Assembly (NCBI GenBank): GCA_947627895.1
Contig: CANQXV010000001.1
Coordinates: 3,987-67,986 of the forward strand
Length of the DNA: 64,000 nt
Source: an uncultured Bacilli bacterium
GTDB taxonomy: Bacteria > Bacillota_I > Bacilli_A > RF39 > UBA660
Reading direction: 5' to 3'
Shown one piece after another: positions 55,419 to 64,000 of this stretch; the first letter of the stretch is position 1, and each line of letters opens with the position of its first letter. Under the pieces are notes generated by a model. That model did no database searches. It was not told where the DNA came from and saw only the letters and a program-made list of their open reading frames with translations. The translations under genes and the position numbers were made by a program.

Positions 55419-55476
55419 ATTACCACCATAGTATTATATGGTAGTTTTAAAAATACATAAATGATGTCAAACTAGA

Positions 55477-55503
55477 AAAAAATAGTAACTTATTGGTTAC
55501 TAT
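55477..55503 (-). terminator. Hairpin terminator at the 3' end of the T4CP gene (TAGTAAC-loop-GTTACTA + T7 on the minus strand)
   Basis: The inverted repeat overlaps the stop codon and is followed on the minus strand by TTTTTTT. Confidence 0.6.
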
Positions 55504-57725
55504 TCATCTCCAAAGAAATCATCGAAAAACTCATCATCCGTGATAACATTTTCATTGACAATAATACTATCACTATCAACATTAATTTTTGGTTTTTCAT
55601 CTTTCGTAGGTTCAGGATTTTCAAGCACTTCTTCTTGTTTTACTTCAGGCATTTCTTCATCAGCATCAAAAATCTTTTCTTCCTTTTCTGGAGCTCGAAG
55701 TTCTTCTTTTTCTTTCTTTTTAGCTTCCTCTTCTTCTAATTCAAAGGCTTTTAGTTTTTCATCAATATCTTTTAACATCGCATCTAAATCTAAGTTAGGT
55801 GTTCCTTGAGGACTAGGACTAGCACCAGGCATTCCAGGCATCCCCATAGCTTCATTTGGCGGATATGGTCGATTAAAATTATTACTTGTTAGTCCCATAC
55901 CACTAGGCATTCCAAATGGATTACTACCCATTGGATTACTAAATGGATTAGCAAAAGGATTGGCACCCATCATACCTCCATTAGGATTTCCTCCTTGTTC
56001 GGCCATCATCTTATTTCTTTCATCCATAACATATTTCTTTAAATCGAATAATTCAACTGGTTGTTTTACTCTTTGAGGATAAGGTTCTTCAACTTTGGGA
56101 ATACCCCAATTAATTTTAAAATCTGGTTGTAATTTTATTTTATATGGATTAGTCCGGGTCCGAATAAGAATACCTTCAAACATCTTCATTTTTTGTAAAT
56201 CAGTAATTGAAGCTAATGGCCGAGTCGCATTTTTATCTTTTTCATCCGTAACTTTAATCTCACCACACATTTTACTTATTTCTTCTAAAGCTTTAAGTTC
56301 GGAACTAATTAAATAAATTAAGTTATTACAATTTCCCCGAATAATTTGAGCAACTTCTTCACCATAAACTGAATTAAGTTGAGCAAAGTCTTGAATAATA
56401 AAAGTAAAACGAATTAACCGGCTCCGCGCCGCTGAAATCATGGCATCAACATCTCTTAAAGGTGGCATGTTAGCAAATTCATCCAAGATAAAGTTTGTTC
56501 TAATTGGTAATTTACCACCTTTTTCTTGAGCTACATCAATTAATGTTTCATAACATTGTTTGATAAAAATGGTCATCAAACTATGATAAGTTTTCTTTTC
56601 ATCATGAATAATCATGAATATGGCCGTTTTACCATCCCCAATACTTCTTAAATCGAAATCACTATATGATAACATTTCACTTAAGTTTTCTTGAGTTGAG
56701 AATTTTCTAATCTTTTGTCTAAATGTCGATAAAATACCACCCTTCGTATCACTTGGGGCATTTATCGTATTAGATGCAAAGATATAAGGGCTAGAACTTT
56801 CACCTTTAAAACGAAAATATTCATTAATATAATGGCTAGTTCCGCATCTCTCTTCCCCAACGGTACTCATTAAGTTAATACTATTTAAGTTTATTTCTTT
56901 TTCTTTCGCATCCATGAATAAACCTAAAGCTAAACCAGAGAAATAATCCGCGGCACTTTTTTCCCAGAAATCGGAATCACTTTTATTATTAGGATCATAC
57001 AAAATATTTAAAGCGATATCATCTAGTAATTCAGTTGCTTTATCCAAGTTACCTTTTTTATAATATTGATAAGGTAATGTTAAAGGGTTCCATGCATTCC
57101 CGCTTTGAGGATCCCGGAAGTTTAAAACAATGATATTATAACCCCGGGATTTTAAATAATGGGCAGAATTTTTATATAGTTCCCCTTTAGGGTCGGTAAT
57201 AATCATACTTTCGCCCTTTTTAGCTAAGAAATTAACCATTGGTTTAACTATAGTTTCAGTTTTCCCAGACCCAGTAGATCCTAGAATTAAACTATGGTAT
57301 TCGCCATCATCAATAAAGGTTTCTTTTTCATTATTAATAATGGGAATCCCTGCGCTTTCAAGCGTATCCGAATATCGATTTATTTTAACAATATCTTTGC
57401 CCTTTTTTATTTCTTTATCATCGGCCCATTTGGCATAGCCATCACTCTCTTTAGTTTTAAATTTTATTCCAATACCCATTCCTTTATCTTTTTTAAAAAT
57501 ATAGGAAGAGACACTGGAAAAGATAGCAATTAAAGCCATAATAAACACTATTATTGTCACTGGTAAATAAGGCATTGTAAAAGCTTTAAAAGGCATTAAG
57601 CCATAGAAAACACCATCGTTTAGTAAAGAAGTACAATTCAAAACAGCTATTGCACATAAATACAATAGTAAAACACTATATATCACAAACATTAGCATAT
57701 CTTTTTTATCTATTTTGAATTTCAT
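55500..57725 (-). CDS. Type IV coupling protein (VirD4/TraG/TcpA-like T4CP)
   Basis: It has N-terminal TM helices and the Walker A GSTGSGKTET. The C-terminus is a low-complexity G/P/N/M-rich then acidic tail. Confidence 0.75.
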   Translation of the reverse strand: MKFKIDKKDMLMFVIYSVLLLYLCAIAVLNCTSLLNDGVFYGLMPFKAFTMPYLPVTIIVFIMALIAIFSSVSSYIFKKDKGMGIGIKFKTKESDGYAKWADDKEIKKGKDIVKINRYSDTLESAGIPIINNEKETFIDDGEYHSLILGSTGSGKTETIVKPMVNFLAKKGESMIITDPKGELYKNSAHYLKSRGYNIIVLNFRDPQSGNAWNPLTLPYQYYKKGNLDKATELLDDIALNILYDPNNKSDSDFWEKSAADYFSGLALGLFMDAKEKEINLNSINLMSTVGEERCGTSHYINEYFRFKGESSSPYIFASNTINAPSDTKGGILSTFRQKIRKFSTQENLSEMLSYSDFDLRSIGDGKTAIFMIIHDEKKTYHSLMTIFIKQCYETLIDVAQEKGGKLPIRTNFILDEFANMPPLRDVDAMISAARSRLIRFTFIIQDFAQLNSVYGEEVAQIIRGNCNNLIYLISSELKALEEISKMCGEIKVTDEKDKNATRPLASITDLQKMKMFEGILIRTRTNPYKIKLQPDFKINWGIPKVEEPYPQRVKQPVELFDLKKYVMDERNKMMAEQGGNPNGGMMGANPFANPFSNPMGSNPFGMPSGMGLTSNNFNRPYPPNEAMGMPGMPGASPSPQGTPNLDLDAMLKDIDEKLKAFELEEEEAKKKEKEELRAPEKEEKIFDADEEMPEVKQEEVLENPEPTKDEKPKINVDSDSIIVNENVITDDEFFDDFFGDE

Positions 57726-57836
57726 TTTTTTCTTCCTTCCACATCATATTATACAAAATATTTATTTATTTAACAACTAATTATGATTATTTATATTTTA
57801 AAATAACTATACTACCTAAAATTATTTTTTACTTCA

Positions 57837-58490
57837 TTAAGTCATATTTTTATTTTTTAATTTTATAGCTATTACTATAATAATTCCTAAAATTAAAAAA
57901 CTACCTAAAATAATTAATATATTATGGTTTTCATTTATTTGTTCTTCTTCATTTTCTTCTTTAAATGCATAAGATAATTCAATACCTTTATTATTATAAT
58001 TATTTCTATCAATAATCCAAGTATAGGTATTACCATCTACTTTATCGGCATTATTTCGAATTATATTAAAATCATTAGTAAATTTTAAATTTATAGTTAT
58101 TTGTTCTAACTCGGGATAATAATCTATGCAAGAATTATATTTATTTGTTATTAAATTATAGTAACCATCTTCCATTATATTAATAGAAACATTTTTATAA
58201 CAAAGATTTACTCCTTTACTTTCTGAATATCTATCCATTGGAAATTTATAAGTTAAATTAGTAGCATTAGCATTCTTTGTAATATCATAATATTCAACAC
58301 CTTCAATTTCTACTGGTTCTTCACTTGCACCTTGTTCATTAGTATAAGCTTCAACGGGAAACATCTCATTAGTTACACCGTTTAAAATAACTGATTCATT
58401 AGCTGAATCTTTGGTAAAATTAACAGTATATTCCACTGTGCAACCACTTAAAAATAAAATAGCAACAATTAACAAAAATCCTTTTTTCAT
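57837..58490 (-). CDS. Conjugation-associated lipoprotein with a C-terminal TM helix
   Basis: The likely start is MKKGFLLIVAILFLSGC (LSGC lipobox). The ORF-track start (58580) would overlap the upstream gene. Confidence 0.5.
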   Translation of the reverse strand: MKKGFLLIVAILFLSGCTVEYTVNFTKDSANESVILNGVTNEMFPVEAYTNEQGASEEPVEIEGVEYYDITKNANATNLTYKFPMDRYSESKGVNLCYKNVSINIMEDGYYNLITNKYNSCIDYYPELEQITINLKFTNDFNIIRNNADKVDGNTYTWIIDRNNYNNKGIELSYAFKEENEEEQINENHNILIILGSFLILGIIIVIAIKLKNKNMT

Positions 58491-62727: not shown

Positions 62728-63294
62728 TTACATCACCGTCCCAAAAGTGGTTTGTTCTCCACCATTTAAATAATTATCTAAAACCATTCTTAAATCATTA
62801 TTTGAAGTTTGAGTTGATTGTAAACCAGCATTTGCTAAACCGCTCATTAAATTATGTAATTTTTTTTGAACAAGTTCCATTCTTTTTTCTTTAAATAAAA
62901 TGTAATATTCCGTATCTACAACATTGTATTCAGCACTCATAAATAAGTTAGCTTTATTAATGTCTTGCATAATTAATTTTCTAATCGCATTAGTTGGAGC
63001 ATTATTATATAAAATTTGTAGTCTCGATAGATAGACATCAATATCAACTGGGCGATCAGCAATAAGTAACCAAAATTCAAAATCAATGGAATTATACATA
63101 TTTCTTAATTTAACAATAACATCTTGTTGAGCACCAGAATCCATAATAAAGATATTTTTAGGAGCAACTTTAACACCTGTTACATATTCTCCAGTATCCA
63201 ACACAATCATTCCATTAATTATTTGATTAACAGGTAACCAATCTTCTGTATATTTTGAATTTGCGTTACTATTTAGTTTCTTCTTTGAACTCAT
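62728..63294 (-). CDS. VirB4 N-terminal-domain-like ORF (188 aa), encoded separately from the ATPase core
   Basis: It ends at TAA, 1 nt before the ATG of the 595-aa ORF. The combined length of 783 aa, with Walker A at about residue 423, matches full-length VirB4 proteins. Confidence 0.5.
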   Translation of the reverse strand: MSSKKKLNSNANSKYTEDWLPVNQIINGMIVLDTGEYVTGVKVAPKNIFIMDSGAQQDVIVKLRNMYNSIDFEFWLLIADRPVDIDVYLSRLQILYNNAPTNAIRKLIMQDINKANLFMSAEYNVVDTEYYILFKEKRMELVQKKLHNLMSGLANAGLQSTQTSNNDLRMVLDNYLNGGEQTTFGTVM

Positions 63295-63592
63295 CTCTTA
63301 TACACCAGCCTTTCCAATAATAATTTCTTCTTCCTTTATAAAAATCAATAATATTTGTAACTAATTGTAATACATTATGATAATTAGGCACCGGCATTAC
63401 CAAAAATCCTGTCACTAAAGCCGGCATCAAAATGAGCACTAATTCTACAAAACTAGCATTTTGCATTATTAATAGTAATATTATTGTTAAAGATACACCC
63501 GTTAAAAAGATAATTAAATCTGTTGGAGTGAAAAAACCTAATATTAATTGTGATTTTTTCGTATTCGCGGGAATTATAAAACTATCATTCAT
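63269..63592 (-). CDS. VirB3/TcpE/PrgI-like small two-TM conjugation membrane protein
   Basis: It is 107 aa with two TM helices, immediately upstream of VirB4. This is the typical VirB3 position and size. Confidence 0.5.
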   Translation of the reverse strand: MNDSFIIPANTKKSQLILGFFTPTDLIIFLTGVSLTIILLLIMQNASFVELVLILMPALVTGFLVMPVPNYHNVLQLVTNIIDFYKGRRNYYWKGWCIRDEFKEETK

Positions 63593-63611
63593 ACCTTTTT
63601 ATTCCTTTCCT

Positions 63612-64000
63612 TTATTTTGTGCCATTTTTAGCATCTTCATGTTCTCTTAAATTTTGAATTTTTTGAGCATTATTAGCTTGAGCAATTTTTCCTTGTTGTT
63701 TTAAATCTTTAAATGCTCTACTGCCTAAGTCAATACTCTTATTATCATCTAACATATCGCCGGATACATGTGCTTCGGCAAAAAATGGTTTTGCTGCCAT
63801 ATTTCTGGCCTTCTTTCTAAATTCAGTATGAGAAATTCTGGCATCGGCGAATGTTCCTCTAAACTCAGCATTTTCGCTATCAAATGCTGAAGCACTTTGT
63901 GTAACTCGTCTTAATACGTCCTCTACTATCGCATTTTCTTCAGCATTTAAAGCGGCAACTCTAGCAGCATATTGCGCACCAGTTACTCTACCACTACGTG
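63612..64000 (-). CDS. 3' end of a larger conjugation-module ORF that runs off the window (partial)
   Basis: The reading frame stays open from 64000 down to the stop at 63612. The 62-aa ORF in the track is only the internal-Met tail. Confidence 0.5.
   Translation of the reverse strand, partial: RSGRVTGAQYAARVAALNAEENAIVEDVLRRVTQSASAFDSENAEFRGTFADARISHTEFRKKARNMAAKPFFAEAHVSGDMLDDNKSIDLGSRAFKDLKQQGKIAQANNAQKIQNLREHEDAKNGTK

What the first reader, a model, noticed from the sequence alone, without database searches (positions are those of the whole stretch)
55420..64000. Partial conjugative T4SS module (ICE edge) lacking a visible VirB6 between VirB4 and the hydrolase
The gene order on the minus strand is an unknown upstream ORF, VirB3-like, VirB4 (split), the M23/NlpC-P60 hydrolase, a lipoprotein, the T4CP and a terminator. 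In Tn916, pCW3 and pCF10-type systems a polytopic VirB6/TcpH-like channel protein normally lies next to VirB4 or the hydrolase. None is present here, so it must lie beyond 64 kb or be missing. The T4CP sitting last in the operon, rather than first, is also a less common arrangement.
Basis: partly seen in the sequence, partly recalled or inferred. Interest (0 to 1): 0.55.

Follow-up and report, generated by a model that had tools for sequence, protein, structure and literature searches.

The report
Chromosomal type IV secretion system, RF39
This is an intact type IV secretion gene cluster that seems to be inherited vertically across a whole order of uncultured, genome-reduced gut bacteria (RF39-like Bacilli), not the broken edge of a mobile element.

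Summary
On the minus strand it reads: VirB3/PrgI-like, a two-gene VirB4, a three-domain wall hydrolase, a lipoprotein, a VirD4-type coupling protein, and an AT-rich terminator.

Two points of the reading need correcting:
- **VirB6:** the "unknown upstream ORF" is the C-terminal tail of a VirB6/TrbL-like polytopic protein of about 700-900 aa. This protein sits directly upstream of VirB3 in 62 of 67 related loci.
- **VirB4 "split":** it is native. It is present in 82 of 82 loci, with start and stop within 4 nt of each other. It matches the TrsD+VirB4 arrangement of monoderm conjugation systems and is shared with Bacillus thuringiensis conjugative plasmids.

The "ICE edge" reading is not supported:
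- The cluster occurs in at least 520 species-level genomes of uncultured gut Bacilli, including the RF39 genus CAG-460.
- It keeps the same neighbours, and it diverges in step with flanking non-T4SS genes.
- It shows no relaxase, integrase, tRNA or att repeat.

The window also holds further parts of the same conserved supercluster at 48.4-52.4 kb: two VirB2-like pilin genes and a set of Tad-like prepilin genes. The closest analogue is the chromosomal, relaxase-less T4SS of Patescibacteria. What the system transports is unknown.

The parts
63612..64000 (-). C-terminal tail of a VirB6/TrbL-like polytopic membrane protein; the gene runs off the window
   Evidence: The frame is open from 63998 to the stop at 63612. 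The stop lies 19 nt upstream of the VirB3-like gene, as in L001, where the gene is 746 aa. The tail matches the last 80 residues of family members in L007 and L010 (31% identity, E 5e-8 against this family set). The family has 5-7 predicted TM segments in its first ~350 aa. Of 57 members, 9 hit PF04610 TrbL/VirB6 (best 4.6e-6) and 6 hit TrbL_4. The L001 member hits the NCBIfam families MMCAP2_0566 (7e-12), Mbov_0396 and pLS20_p028, all below cut-off.
63269..63592 (-). VirB3/PrgI-like small membrane protein (107 aa, 2 TM)
   Evidence: Found in 75 of 82 loci, always directly upstream of the VirB4 pair. Profile comparison with the 'PrgI family' protein of a B. thuringiensis conjugative plasmid gives probability 71.6%, E 3.5e-5 over 93 columns. 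No Pfam or NCBIfam hit on its own.
62728..63294 (-). TrsD-like protein, equivalent to the N-terminal domain of VirB4 (188 aa)
   Evidence: Aligns to positions 89-276 of the 894-position NCBIfam VirB4_plasma model (5e-14). The L001 homologue carries PF26593 TraC-like. It is 33% identical over 129 aa (E 3e-20) to the 210-aa protein upstream of VirB4 in plasmid NZ_CP097259. It is a separate ORF in 82 of 82 loci.
60939..62726 (-). VirB4 ATPase (595 aa), C-terminal ATPase part
   Evidence: PF19044 5.7e-16 and AAA_10. NCBIfam VirB4_plasma positions 294-891, 3e-102, 342.8 bits; CD1110 family 4.5e-52. Walker A (GTSGSGKST) and Walker B (VDEAH) can be read in the translation. Mean pairwise identity is 82% among 82 loci.
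58507..60900 (-). Membrane-anchored multi-domain peptidoglycan hydrolase (VirB1 role)
   Evidence: Peptidase_M23 9e-29, Phage_lysozyme 6e-5, NlpC/P60 5e-3 (the last is below cut-off). This slot always holds a hydrolase, but from different families (f14, f17, f18, f23; SpoIID in L082, L090 and L091).
57837..58490 (-). Lipoprotein with a C-terminal membrane anchor (217 aa)
   Evidence: Lipobox LFLSGC and a C-terminal hydrophobic helix. Among family members longer than 180 aa (28), 24 have a lipobox and all 28 have a C-terminal TM. The AF2 model has pLDDT 81.2; its best fold match is M. tuberculosis LppM (E 9e-6, TM 0.55). It is not a VirB8/NTF2 fold.
55500..57725 (-). VirD4-type coupling protein (T4CP, 741 aa) with a long disordered acidic tail
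   Evidence: PF02534 1.4e-51, TraG-D_C 3e-23, TrwB_AAD_bind 4e-23. NCBIfam CD1115 family 295.6 bits against a cut-off of 250. Two N-terminal TM segments and Walker A (GSTGSGKT) are read from the translation.
55476..55504 (-). AT-rich hairpin plus T-run: probable intrinsic terminator of the operon
   Evidence: Sequence read. The 106-nt fold has MFE -24.5 kcal/mol and z -4.2. The G+C-based scan did not flag it.
48433..48813 (-). VirB2-like T4SS pilin-domain protein (126 aa)
   Evidence: Belongs to a family in 62 of 82 loci, with 1-6 copies directly upstream of the VirB6-like gene in 57 of 63 loci. Of 128 members, 42 hit PF18895 T4SS_pilin (best 1.6e-7) and 2 hit CagC. This copy does not itself reach PF18895.
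48905..49921 (-). Second pilin-domain protein (338 aa), with a D/N-rich repeat extension
   Evidence: Its N-terminal 110 aa align with the pilin family (39% identical to the 126-aa copy). Internal 108-nt repeats lie at 48935-49480.
49933..50928 (-). TadZ/CpaE-like two-domain protein (331 aa)
   Evidence: No Pfam or NCBIfam hit. The AF2 model has pLDDT 76.5. Its C-terminal domain matches ParA/ParF/MinD folds (E about 1e-4, TM about 0.5), and the N-terminal domain is flavodoxin-like. In other species it lies between the prepilin genes and the VirB2-like array.
50939..51903 (-). Two paralogous prepilin-like proteins (150 and 170 aa)
   Evidence: They share a conserved N-terminus, M[RK]E[AS][IV]G, followed by about 20 hydrophobic residues, across 38 family members. 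In L085, L067 and L090 they follow a T2SSE ATPase and two polytopic proteins.
51911..52355 (-). Two small prepilin-like proteins (79 and 65 aa)
   Evidence: The N-terminus MKEATGELN plus a hydrophobic helix is conserved in 27 family members. The two genes are paralogues (repeat D2).
54507..55418 (-). Rhodanese-like (84 aa) and VTT/DedA-family genes: conserved neighbours, probably not components
   Evidence: Rhodanese 2.8e-5 and VTT_dom 5.9e-19. The rhodanese-like gene follows the T4CP within 1.5 kb in 33 of 38 loci. They lie after the terminator-like hairpin.

Best explanation
**What it is.** Window 55.5-64.0 kb is the core operon of a chromosomal type IV secretion system. The system is inherited vertically in RF39-like gut Bacilli and descends from the conjugation machinery of monoderm bacteria. 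Its relatives are the pGO1/pAW63-type plasmids and Mycoplasma ICEs.

**Shown.** The operon encodes:
- a VirB6/TrbL-like channel protein (only its tail is in the window);
- a PrgI/VirB3-like protein;
- a two-gene VirB4 (TrsD-like part plus ATPase part, translationally coupled);
- a multi-domain wall hydrolase;
- a membrane-anchored lipoprotein;
- a VirD4-type coupling protein.

The operon ends in a terminator-like hairpin. It is not at the edge of an integrative element.

VirB2-like pilin genes and Tad-like prepilin genes lie at 48.4-52.4 kb. In many species these genes are contiguous with and upstream of the operon, so they belong to the same conserved supercluster.

**Inferred mechanism.**
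- VirB6, VirB3 and TrsD-VirB4 form the membrane translocon.
- The hydrolase opens the cell wall locally.
- The pilins build a surface fibre that makes contact with another cell.
- The coupling protein feeds a substrate into the channel.

No relaxase is linked to the cluster, and the lineage is highly auxotrophic. The system has therefore most likely been co-opted for contact-dependent exchange of macromolecules with neighbouring cells, rather than for moving a selfish element. The substrate and the direction of transport are not known.
For: **Components:**

**Distribution:**
- At least 520 species-representative genomes carry a VirB4 relative. Most are labelled Bacilli, Tenericutes or Mycoplasmatota. 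A few carry labels such as Muribaculaceae or Methanobrevibacter, which I take to be mis-binned contigs.
- One of them is Firmicutes bacterium CAG:460. The genus CAG-460 is placed in RF39, family UBA660, in PMC13155120.

**Synteny:**
- The VirB6-like gene is directly upstream in 62 of 67 loci.
- The T4CP is in the cluster in 38 of 48 loci, followed by the rhodanese-like gene in 33 of 38.
- At least one pilin gene lies upstream in 57 of 63 loci.

**Vertical descent:** pairwise VirB4 identity correlates with that of flanking non-T4SS genes: f13 0.84, f20 0.77, f16 0.67, MurC-like 0.70, M29 0.92, VTT 0.71 (Spearman).

**Selection:** VirB4 mean pairwise identity is 82%. Across smaller, partly different sets of loci, the MurC-like ligase averages 56% and the M29 peptidase 51%. 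ATPase motifs are intact.

**Chromosomal setting:**
- The window carries an aminoacyl-tRNA synthetase, UvrB, FtsY, RNase J, NrdD/G and Mur ligases.
- One relative lies inside a 688-kb contig.
- G+C is uniform across the window.

**No mobility genes:**
- No relaxase or integrase family appears in the window ORFs scanned.
- Five Pfam-annotated relatives have no relaxase. L083 has one serine recombinase 10 kb upstream.
- No MobP3 homologue was found in 1.53 Mb of loci.
- No tRNA or att-like repeat was found.

**Native split:** the gap between the two VirB4 genes is -4, -1, 0 or +1 nt in all 82 loci. The same two-gene form occurs in a B. thuringiensis conjugative plasmid.

**Analogue:** the Patescibacteria T4SS is chromosomal, lacks a relaxase, and has VirB2 arrays, TrsD+VirB4, and a peptidase/lysozyme downstream of virB4 (PMC12102498).
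Against: - The N-terminal polytopic part of the VirB6-like gene was not seen for this genome. The source contig could not be retrieved.
- The VirB6, VirB3 and pilin assignments rest on sub-threshold or profile-level matches. The comparison of the VirB6-like profile with the plasmid TrbL protein was weak (E 0.013).
- 'No relaxase' was tested only in about 20-kb neighbourhoods, with Pfam families and one relaxase type. A relaxase could lie elsewhere in the genome or be unrecognisable.
- The co-divergence test uses neighbouring genes, not a species tree. Neighbours carried on the same element would co-diverge too.
- In 10 of 48 loci the genes after VirB4 are different and no T4CP is seen nearby.
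- No VirB8-like component was found.
- No expression or functional data were examined.
Confidence: 0.72

Rival explanations
1. One reading: this is the edge of an integrative conjugative element (or a remnant of one). It carries a partial T4SS module with a damaged VirB4 and no VirB6.
For: All recognisable proteins belong to conjugation-type families. The nearest named relatives are on conjugative plasmids and Mycoplasma ICEs. The operon ends at a terminator next to ordinary genes.
Against: The same cluster with the same neighbours is found in dozens of species and co-diverges with them. The split is conserved in 82 of 82 loci. The VirB6-like gene is adjacent in relatives, and its tail is in the window. 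No integrase, relaxase, tRNA or att repeat was found. G+C is uniform.
Confidence: 0.05
2. This is a working chromosomal conjugation system. It exports chromosomal DNA from one RF39 cell to another, as Mycoplasma ICE machinery does for chromosomal transfer. The relaxase or other DNA-processing enzyme would be encoded elsewhere or would be of an unrecognised type.
For: A VirD4-type T4CP is kept and conserved: it passes the CD1115 family cut-off, and identity is 50-83% across species. The closest plasmid family couples the same genes to a MobP3 relaxase. The best NCBIfam match for VirB4 is the Mycoplasma ICE ATPase.
Against: No relaxase was found in the window, in five Pfam-annotated neighbourhoods, or by MobP3 search of 1.53 Mb. 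Only neighbourhoods were searched, not whole genomes.
Confidence: 0.25
3. This is an import machine. Like the archaeal Ced system or Helicobacter ComB, the domesticated T4SS takes up DNA, which would also supply nucleotides to a lineage reported to lack de novo nucleotide synthesis.
For: RF39 is reported to lack de novo synthesis of nucleic acid precursors and many other pathways (PMC13155120; PMC6784871). Domesticated conjugation machinery that imports DNA is known (PMC9905601, listed). VirB4 has weak NCBIfam matches to CedB and CedD. The system is linked to a pilus locus.
Against: The matches to the Ced proteins are far below cut-off and reflect the shared ATPase fold. Ced and ComB do not use a VirD4-type coupling protein (my own knowledge, not tested here). 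The window also encodes a ComEA-like protein, which suggests an ordinary competence route.
Confidence: 0.15

Closest known systems
Chromosomal T4SS of Patescibacteria/Saccharibacteria (PMC12102498)
   Same: It is chromosomal, widespread in a genome-reduced lineage, and of MPF_FATA-type ancestry. It has no linked relaxase. It has arrays of divergent VirB2-like pilin genes (PF18895), a PrgI/VirB3, a separate TrsD next to VirB4, a peptidase/lysozyme immediately downstream of virB4, and an association with a type IV-like pilus (compared).
   Different: The host here is a cell-walled Bacilli order. Here the T4CP is usually inside the cluster (38 of 48 loci), whereas in Patescibacteria only 148 of 5,713 T4CP homologues lie near virB4. 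The pilus genes here are Tad-like and contiguous with the T4SS. The phylogenetic relation between the two VirB4 clades was not tested.
Conjugation module of Bacillus thuringiensis plasmids (e.g. NZ_CP097259; pAW63/pXO2-like by my recollection)
   Same: The core order is the same: small protein, TrbL/VirB6, PrgI, 210-aa TrsD-like protein, DUF87 VirB4, wall hydrolase. The T4CP is of the same CD1115 family. VirB4 is 28-31% identical, the TrsD-like protein 33%, and the T4CP 30-33%.
   Different: The plasmid has a MobP3 relaxase next to the T4CP at the head of the module and is typed as conjugative. The window cluster has no relaxase, places the T4CP last, has a much larger VirB6-like protein (about 750 aa against 285 aa), and is chromosomal and vertically inherited.
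Mycoplasma ICE transfer genes (NCBIfam Mbov_0395, Mbov_0396 and Mbov_0397 families)
   Same: The best NCBIfam matches for VirB4 (3e-102) and for the VirB6-like protein (MMCAP2_0566 7e-12; Mbov_0396 5e-9) are to these families. The order pilin-like, membrane protein, VirB4 is shared.
   Different: All scores are below the curated cut-offs (342.8 + 51 against 590; 45 against 90). VirB4 is a single 894-position protein in that family but two genes here. No DDE transposase or ICE ends were seen.
Tad (tight adherence / Flp) pilus loci
   Same: In relatives the order is: two proteins with only faint SAF-domain Pfam hits, a T2SSE ATPase (PF00437 5e-28), two polytopic proteins, two small and two medium prepilin-like proteins, and a protein with a ParA/MinD-like domain. 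A Mycoplasmatota plasmid carries VirB4 next to annotated SAF, CpaF and T2SS-F genes.
   Different: The polytopic proteins and pilins hit no Pfam family. The Flp G/XXXXEY motif is absent. No prepilin peptidase was seen. The window itself lacks the ATPase and platform genes.

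Membership tests
Integrative conjugative element (ICE) | Integrase or recombinase at one end | tested here: not met
   No integrase or recombinase family appears in the window ORFs scanned with Pfam, nor next to the cluster in L001, L082, L090 or L091. L083 has one serine recombinase 10 kb upstream.
Integrative conjugative element (ICE) | Relaxase (and oriT) for self-transfer | tested here: not met
   No relaxase Pfam family appears in the same scans. tblastn with the MobP3 relaxase of the closest plasmid family found nothing in 1.53 Mb. 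Whole genomes were not searched, and oriT was not tested.
Integrative conjugative element (ICE) | Bounded by att repeats or a tRNA; composition differs from the host; variable presence among relatives | tested here: not met
   The window has no tRNA. No boundary repeats were found in 47-64 kb. G+C is 0.29-0.34, like the rest of the window. The same position and neighbours recur across species.
Monoderm conjugation-type T4SS (MPF_FATA class) | VirB4 ATPase | tested here: met
   PF19044 and AAA_10. NCBIfam VirB4_plasma 3e-102 and CD1110 4.5e-52, both below their equivalog cut-offs. CONJscan typing was not available.
Monoderm conjugation-type T4SS (MPF_FATA class) | TrsD (separate VirB4-N-terminal-like protein) | tested here: met
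   The 188-aa ORF aligns to VirB4_plasma positions 89-276. It is homologous to the 210-aa protein upstream of VirB4 in NZ_CP097259 (E 3e-20). TrsD is described in PMC12102498. The TrsD profile itself was not run.
Monoderm conjugation-type T4SS (MPF_FATA class) | VirB6-like polytopic protein (PrgH/TrbL) | tested here: inconclusive
   Relatives: 5-7 TM segments; 9 of 57 hit PF04610 and 6 of 57 hit TrbL_4; weak NCBIfam conjugal-transfer hits. All are sub-threshold. In the window only the tail is present.
Monoderm conjugation-type T4SS (MPF_FATA class) | VirB3/PrgI-like protein | tested here: met
   hhalign against an annotated PrgI family protein: probability 71.6%, E 3.5e-5 over 93 columns. Size, two TM segments and position all match.
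Monoderm conjugation-type T4SS (MPF_FATA class) | Cell-wall hydrolase (VirB1 role) | tested here: met
   M23 9e-29 plus a lysozyme-like domain. The slot is conserved although the family varies.
Monoderm conjugation-type T4SS (MPF_FATA class) | VirB8-like (PrgL/TcpC, NTF2-like fold) protein | tested here: not met
   The only candidate in the operon, the lipoprotein, models as an LppM-like beta fold, not NTF2. Other ORFs were not modelled.
VirD4-like coupling protein, CD1115 family (NCBIfam NF045973) | Score above the curated equivalog cut-off | tested here: met
   295.6 bits against a cut-off of 250, E 6e-88.
Mycoplasma ICE VirB4 (NCBIfam NF045975, Mbov_0397 family) | Score above the curated cut-off (590 bits) as one protein | tested here: not met
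   342.8 bits (ATPase part) and 51 bits (N-terminal part), on two separate genes.
T4SS pilin (VirB2-like, PF18895) | Match to the pilin profile; small protein with two hydrophobic helices | tested here: inconclusive
   Of 128 family members, 42 match at E<=0.01 (best 1.6e-7). The two window copies do not match on their own, but they align with the family and show the two-helix pattern.
Tad/Flp pilus | TadA/CpaF ATPase, TadB/C platform, Flp prepilin with G/XXXXEY, prepilin peptidase, TadZ | tested here: inconclusive
   The ATPase is present in relatives (PF00437 5e-28) but not in the window. The platform candidates have no Pfam hit. The pilins have a different conserved leader, MKEATG. No peptidase was seen. 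The TadZ-like assignment rests on fold only.
Patescibacteria-type chromosomal T4SS | VirB4 falls in the Patescibacteria clade | not testable with these tools
   No Patescibacteria VirB4 sequences or taxonomy-labelled tree were available. Only the gene-content parallels could be compared.

The most novel reading that the evidence does not exclude
RF39 bacteria may carry a single, order-wide, vertically inherited 'contact machine'. It would combine a Tad-like pilus, an array of fast-diverging VirB2-like pilins (some fused to wall-lytic or peptidase domains), and a relaxase-less T4SS with its own coupling protein. They would use it to attach to other gut microbes and exchange or extract macromolecules. 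That would be a lifestyle parallel to Saccharibacteria epibionts, and possibly evolutionarily linked to the monoderm source of the Patescibacteria T4SS.
Probability: 0.2. Interest if true: 0.85.

Novelty: new variant of a known kind. Interest (0 to 1): 0.58.

Why it matters
RF39 is a common, uncultured, highly auxotrophic gut lineage, and how it makes a living is an open question. One of its most conserved proteins appears to be a VirB4: mean pairwise identity is 82% between species, higher than for the MurC-like ligase (56%) or the M29 peptidase (51%) measured on smaller sets of loci. This VirB4 sits in a complete T4SS operon with no signs of mobility. That points to cell-to-cell contact as central to RF39 biology, as was shown genetically for Saccharibacteria. 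It gives concrete targets for metatranscriptomics, co-culture design and imaging. It would also extend the idea of 'domesticated conjugation machinery' from CPR bacteria and archaea to a Bacilli order.

For annotation practice, two lessons follow:
- The two-gene VirB4 and the large unannotated VirB6-like protein are native features and should not be called pseudogenes or gaps.
- T4SS genes in these genomes should not be counted as ICEs.

Tried and rejected
**Source contig.**
- Exact look-up of the VirB4 and of its 100%-identical cluster representative found no contig on record.
- The identical lipoprotein exists only on two contigs of about 1.7 kb.
- So the sequence beyond 64 kb could not be read directly.

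**Other negative or weak searches.**
- A megablast search of the region against plasmids found nothing.
- Profiles of the VirB6-like, VirB3-like, pilin and TadZ-like families found no solved structure by sequence.
- The pilin profile against the 126-aa 'conjugal transfer protein' of the Bt plasmid was not significant (E 0.14).
- The VirB6-like profile against the Bt TrbL protein was weak (E 0.013).
- The lipoprotein is not VirB8-like.

**Ideas considered and dropped.**
- Programmed frameshift joining the two VirB4 genes. The junction varies (-4, -1, 0, +1 nt) between species, so no single frameshift site is conserved.
- Rhodanese/VTT as T4SS components. They lie after the terminator-like hairpin and have ordinary family matches.
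- A decaying remnant. All ORFs are intact and strongly conserved.

**Literature.** Searches for RF39 together with T4SS, type IV secretion or VirB4 found no description of this system.

Full report
**1. What is in the sequence**

On the minus strand between 55.5 and 64.0 kb, six ORFs lie head to tail:

| Coordinates | Size | Assignment | Main evidence |
|---|---|---|---|
| 63269-63592 | 107 aa | VirB3/PrgI-like, two hydrophobic helices | |
| 62728-63294 | 188 aa | VirB4 N-terminal part (TrsD-like) | NCBIfam VirB4_plasma positions 89-276 |
| 60939-62726 | 595 aa | VirB4 ATPase | PF19044, AAA_10; VirB4_plasma positions 294-891, 3e-102 |
| 58507-60900 | 797 aa | Wall hydrolase | Peptidase_M23 9e-29; lysozyme-like 6e-5; NlpC/P60 5e-3, below cut-off |
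| 57837-58580 | 247 aa as listed | Lipoprotein | True start probably Met31 at 58490, giving 217 aa with a LFLSGC lipobox and a C-terminal anchor |
| 55500-57725 | 741 aa | T4CP | PF02534 1.4e-51; CD1115-family VirD4-like equivalog, 295.6 bits against a cut-off of 250 |

Walker motifs can be read in both ATPases.

Directly after the T4CP stop there is an AT-rich hairpin at 55504-55481 followed by a T-run. The region folds much better than shuffles (z -4.2). The G+C-based terminator scan did not flag it.

**2. The 'unknown upstream ORF' is the tail of the VirB6-like gene**

- The frame of the 62-aa ORF is open all the way from 63998 to its stop at 63612. It is the 3' end of a gene that runs off the window.
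- In the closest relative with full context (L001; VirB4 93% identical), the gene in that position encodes 746 aa and ends 22 nt before the VirB3-like gene.
- A gene of this family (about 680-980 aa) lies directly upstream of the VirB3-like/VirB4 genes in 62 of 67 loci with enough upstream DNA.
- Its first ~350 residues hold 5-7 predicted membrane segments, and its C-terminal half is variable.
- The window's 128-residue tail matches the last 80 residues of two family members (31% identity, E 5e-8 within the family set).
- Scanned one by one, 9 of 57 N-terminal domains hit PF04610 TrbL/VirB6 (best 4.6e-6), 6 hit TrbL_4 and 1 hits TrbL_5.
- The L001 protein hits the NCBIfam conjugal-transfer membrane families MMCAP2_0566 (7e-12), Mbov_0396 (5e-9) and pLS20_p028 (6e-4), all below cut-off.

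On this evidence, VirB6 is not missing. Its polytopic half begins just beyond 64 kb. I could not read that DNA, because the source contig is not retrievable.

**3. The VirB4 'split' is native**

- All 82 loci compared have the two ORFs (about 188 and about 594 aa).
- The stop of the first and the start of the second are separated by -4, -1, 0 or +1 nt. A conserved GGnACGGTGATG precedes the start, which looks like a built-in ribosome-binding site.
- The two ORFs are colinear on a single-protein VirB4 model.
- The 188-aa protein is homologous (33% over 129 aa, E 3e-20) to a 210-aa 'hypothetical protein' in the same position upstream of the DUF87 VirB4 of a conjugative B. thuringiensis plasmid.
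- A search of 1.84 billion representative proteins found both stand-alone forms (about 210-230 aa) and fused forms (800-839 aa).

**4. Not an ICE edge**

*Distribution.*
- The VirB4 protein has thousands of relatives of 593-597 aa at 80-95% identity.
All of the best 80 are from uncultured gut MAGs. Most are labelled Bacilli, Tenericutes or Mycoplasmatota. A few carry labels such as Muribaculaceae or Methanobrevibacter, which I take to be mis-binned contigs.
- One of them is Firmicutes bacterium CAG:460, whose genus is assigned to RF39 (family UBA660) in PMC13155120.

*Conserved order.* The usual order is: [pilin-like x1-6], VirB6-like, VirB3-like, TrsD-like, VirB4, hydrolase, lipoprotein or other small protein, T4CP, rhodanese-like, VTT/DedA.
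- The T4CP is present in 38 of 48 loci with at least 7.5 kb downstream.
- It is followed by the rhodanese-like gene in 33 of those 38.

*Co-divergence.*
- Pairwise VirB4 identity tracks that of flanking non-T4SS genes: Spearman 0.67-0.92 for f13, f20, f16, the MurC-like ligase and the M29 peptidase, and 0.71-0.72 for VTT and rhodanese.
- VirB4 averages 82% identity. On smaller, partly different sets of loci, the MurC-like ligase averages 56% and the M29 peptidase 51%.

*Setting.*
- The rest of the window is ordinary chromosome. It holds a class II aminoacyl-tRNA synthetase, UvrB, FtsY, RNase J, NrdD/G, Mur ligases, a D-Ala-D-Ala carboxypeptidase, and SpoVA and sigma-factor genes.
- One relative lies in the middle of a 688-kb contig.
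- G+C is uniform across the window.

*No mobility signatures.*
- There is no tRNA and no boundary repeat.
- No integrase or relaxase family appears in the window ORFs scanned.
- Five Pfam-annotated neighbourhoods have no relaxase. One of them (L083) has a serine recombinase 10 kb upstream.
- No MobP3 relaxase homologue was found in 1.53 Mb of related loci.

*Limits.* The co-divergence test uses neighbours rather than a species tree. Relaxases were looked for only near the cluster.

**5.

*Pilin-like genes.*
- In most species 1-6 genes of one family lie directly upstream of the VirB6-like gene (57 of 63 loci).
- Of 128 members, 42 match PF18895 (T4SS pilin, VirB2-like; best 1.6e-7) and 2 match CagC.
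- A few members carry extra Peptidase_C39_2, VgrG3-like_C or NlpC/P60 domains.
- The window has two members, at 48433-48813 and 48905-49921. The second carries D/N-rich repeats.

*Tad-like genes.*
- Next to the pilin genes, at 49933-52355, are five genes with no Pfam or NCBIfam match.
- Two small proteins (65 and 79 aa) and two medium ones (150 and 170 aa) share a conserved leader (MKEATGELN... and M[RK]E[AS][IV]G...) followed by a hydrophobic helix.
- The fifth is a 331-aa protein. Its AF2 model (pLDDT 76.5) has a ParA/ParF/MinD-type domain behind a flavodoxin-like domain, which is the TadZ/CpaE architecture.
- In other species this block sits immediately upstream of the pilin array. It is preceded by two polytopic proteins, a T2SSE/CpaF-type ATPase (PF00437 5e-28) and two proteins with faint SAF-domain Pfam hits. 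Together with the T4SS genes they form one co-oriented supercluster.
- The window lacks the ATPase and platform genes. In this sub-lineage (window, L001, L003), the pilin block lies downstream of the T4SS operon instead of upstream.
- A Mycoplasmatota plasmid also carries a VirB4 next to annotated SAF, AAA-ATPase, CpaF and T2SS-F genes, and it is typed non-mobilizable.
- The Tad assignment remains a resemblance only. The Flp motif, a prepilin peptidase and Pfam support for the platform proteins are all missing.

**6. How it most likely works**

*Shown:* a complete set of inner-membrane and energising parts of a monoderm T4SS, a wall hydrolase, a coupling protein, and candidate fibre subunits. 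All are intact and under strong constraint.

*Inferred from established knowledge of T4SSs:*
- VirB6, VirB3 and TrsD-VirB4 form the translocon.
- The hydrolase opens the wall.
- The pilins make contact with a partner cell.
- VirD4 recruits a substrate.

*Function:* the cluster has no linked relaxase, is fixed in the lineage, and sits in organisms described as lacking many biosynthetic pathways (PMC6784871; PMC13155120). I therefore think a co-opted, contact-dependent exchange function is more likely than self-transfer of an element. Chromosomal conjugation with an unlinked relaxase, and DNA import, both remain open.

**7. Comparison with known systems**

- **B. thuringiensis conjugative plasmids.** The core order and the protein families match these plasmids (TrbL, PrgI, TrsD-like, VirB4, hydrolase, with a CD1115-family T4CP). 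The plasmids add a MobP3 relaxase.
- **Mycoplasma ICE families.** The best NCBIfam matches are to these, but they fall below the curated cut-offs.
- **Patescibacteria T4SS.** This is the closest analogue in biology. It is chromosomal, lacks a relaxase, and has VirB2 arrays, TrsD+VirB4 and a peptidase/lysozyme after virB4. It was shown by transposon sequencing to be essential for epibiotic growth in one Saccharibacterium (PMC12102498).
- **Literature on RF39.** I found no paper describing such a system in RF39. The library does not cover all journals.

**8. Verdict**

This is a T4SS, and VirB6 does lie beyond the window. It is wrong on the points that made the finding look odd: the missing VirB6, the broken VirB4 and the ICE edge.
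- What is really there is more interesting than a remnant. It is a lineage-wide, apparently domesticated T4SS, linked to pilin arrays and a Tad-like pilus locus, in a major uncultured gut order.
- I rate it a new variant of a known kind. Interest is moderate to high, limited by the lack of any functional evidence and by several sub-threshold homology calls.

Noticed in passing
window 39350-46849 (-): A 2499-aa ORF with an M26 (IgA1-specific metallopeptidase) C-terminal region (1.2e-28). It is a giant surface protease candidate in a genome-reduced gut bacterium.
   Followed up: no
window 22980-25971 (-) and 7606-9189 (+): An 815-aa protein with five SpaA (prealbumin-like) domains and a thioester (TED) domain lies next to a sortase. 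A second, unusually long sortase-domain protein (527 aa) lies at 7.6 kb. This is a sortase-dependent adhesin or pilus, separate from the T4SS pilins.
   Followed up: no
window 30278-32466 (-): SpoVAD (9.5e-103), SpoVAC/SpoVAEB and a sporulation-type sigma-70 family factor. So this reduced-genome lineage keeps sporulation genes, consistent with a remark in PMC13155120.
   Followed up: no
window 26019-26717 (-): A ComEA-like protein (SLBB plus HHH_3). It suggests that a conventional DNA-uptake route exists alongside the T4SS.
   Followed up: no
window 54507-55418 (-): An 84-aa rhodanese-like gene and a VTT/DedA gene follow the T4CP in most species (33 of 38 loci for the rhodanese-like gene), although they lie after the terminator-like hairpin. 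Why this adjacency is kept is unexplained.
   Followed up: partly
L085:8006-9523; members of alignment A1: Some pilin-type proteins are fused to enzymes. One prepilin-like protein carries Peptidase_M15. Some VirB2-like family members carry Peptidase_C39_2 (5), VgrG3-like_C (2, 5e-10) or NlpC/P60 (1). This hints that the fibre delivers wall-active domains.
   Followed up: partly
L084 (CP074574.1, 19167-38900): A 98-kb plasmid from a cold-seep Mycoplasmatota bacterium carries a VirB4 (28% identical) a few genes upstream of a Tad-like locus (SAF, AAA ATPase, CpaF, T2SS-F). It is typed non-mobilizable, meaning no relaxase was recognised. The T4SS-Tad linkage is therefore older than RF39.
   Followed up: partly
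L082:2769-4091: A second, short T4CP-like gene (440 aa; PF02534, TraG-D_C) lies 3 kb upstream of the pilin and VirB6 genes in a 688-kb contig.
   Followed up: no
L023, L026, L027, L033, L035 and others: In a sub-group of species the genes after VirB4 are replaced by another conserved set (families f15, f30, f29, f37, f59, f58, f57). In L023, L026 and L035 a divergent T2SSE-like ATPase (f55) lies upstream instead of VirB6. The T4CP and hydrolase must be elsewhere or lost.
   Followed up: partly
hydrolase slot, e.g. window 58507-60900; L082:11793-13619; L090:11856-13991: The gene after VirB4 is always a wall hydrolase, but of changing type: M23 plus lysozyme plus NlpC/P60 in the window, and SpoIID in others. 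At least four unrelated sequence families fill this cassette-like slot.
   Followed up: partly
window 32820-34985 (-): A 721-aa protein with GLUG motifs (4e-16), a motif found in large surface proteins.
   Followed up: no
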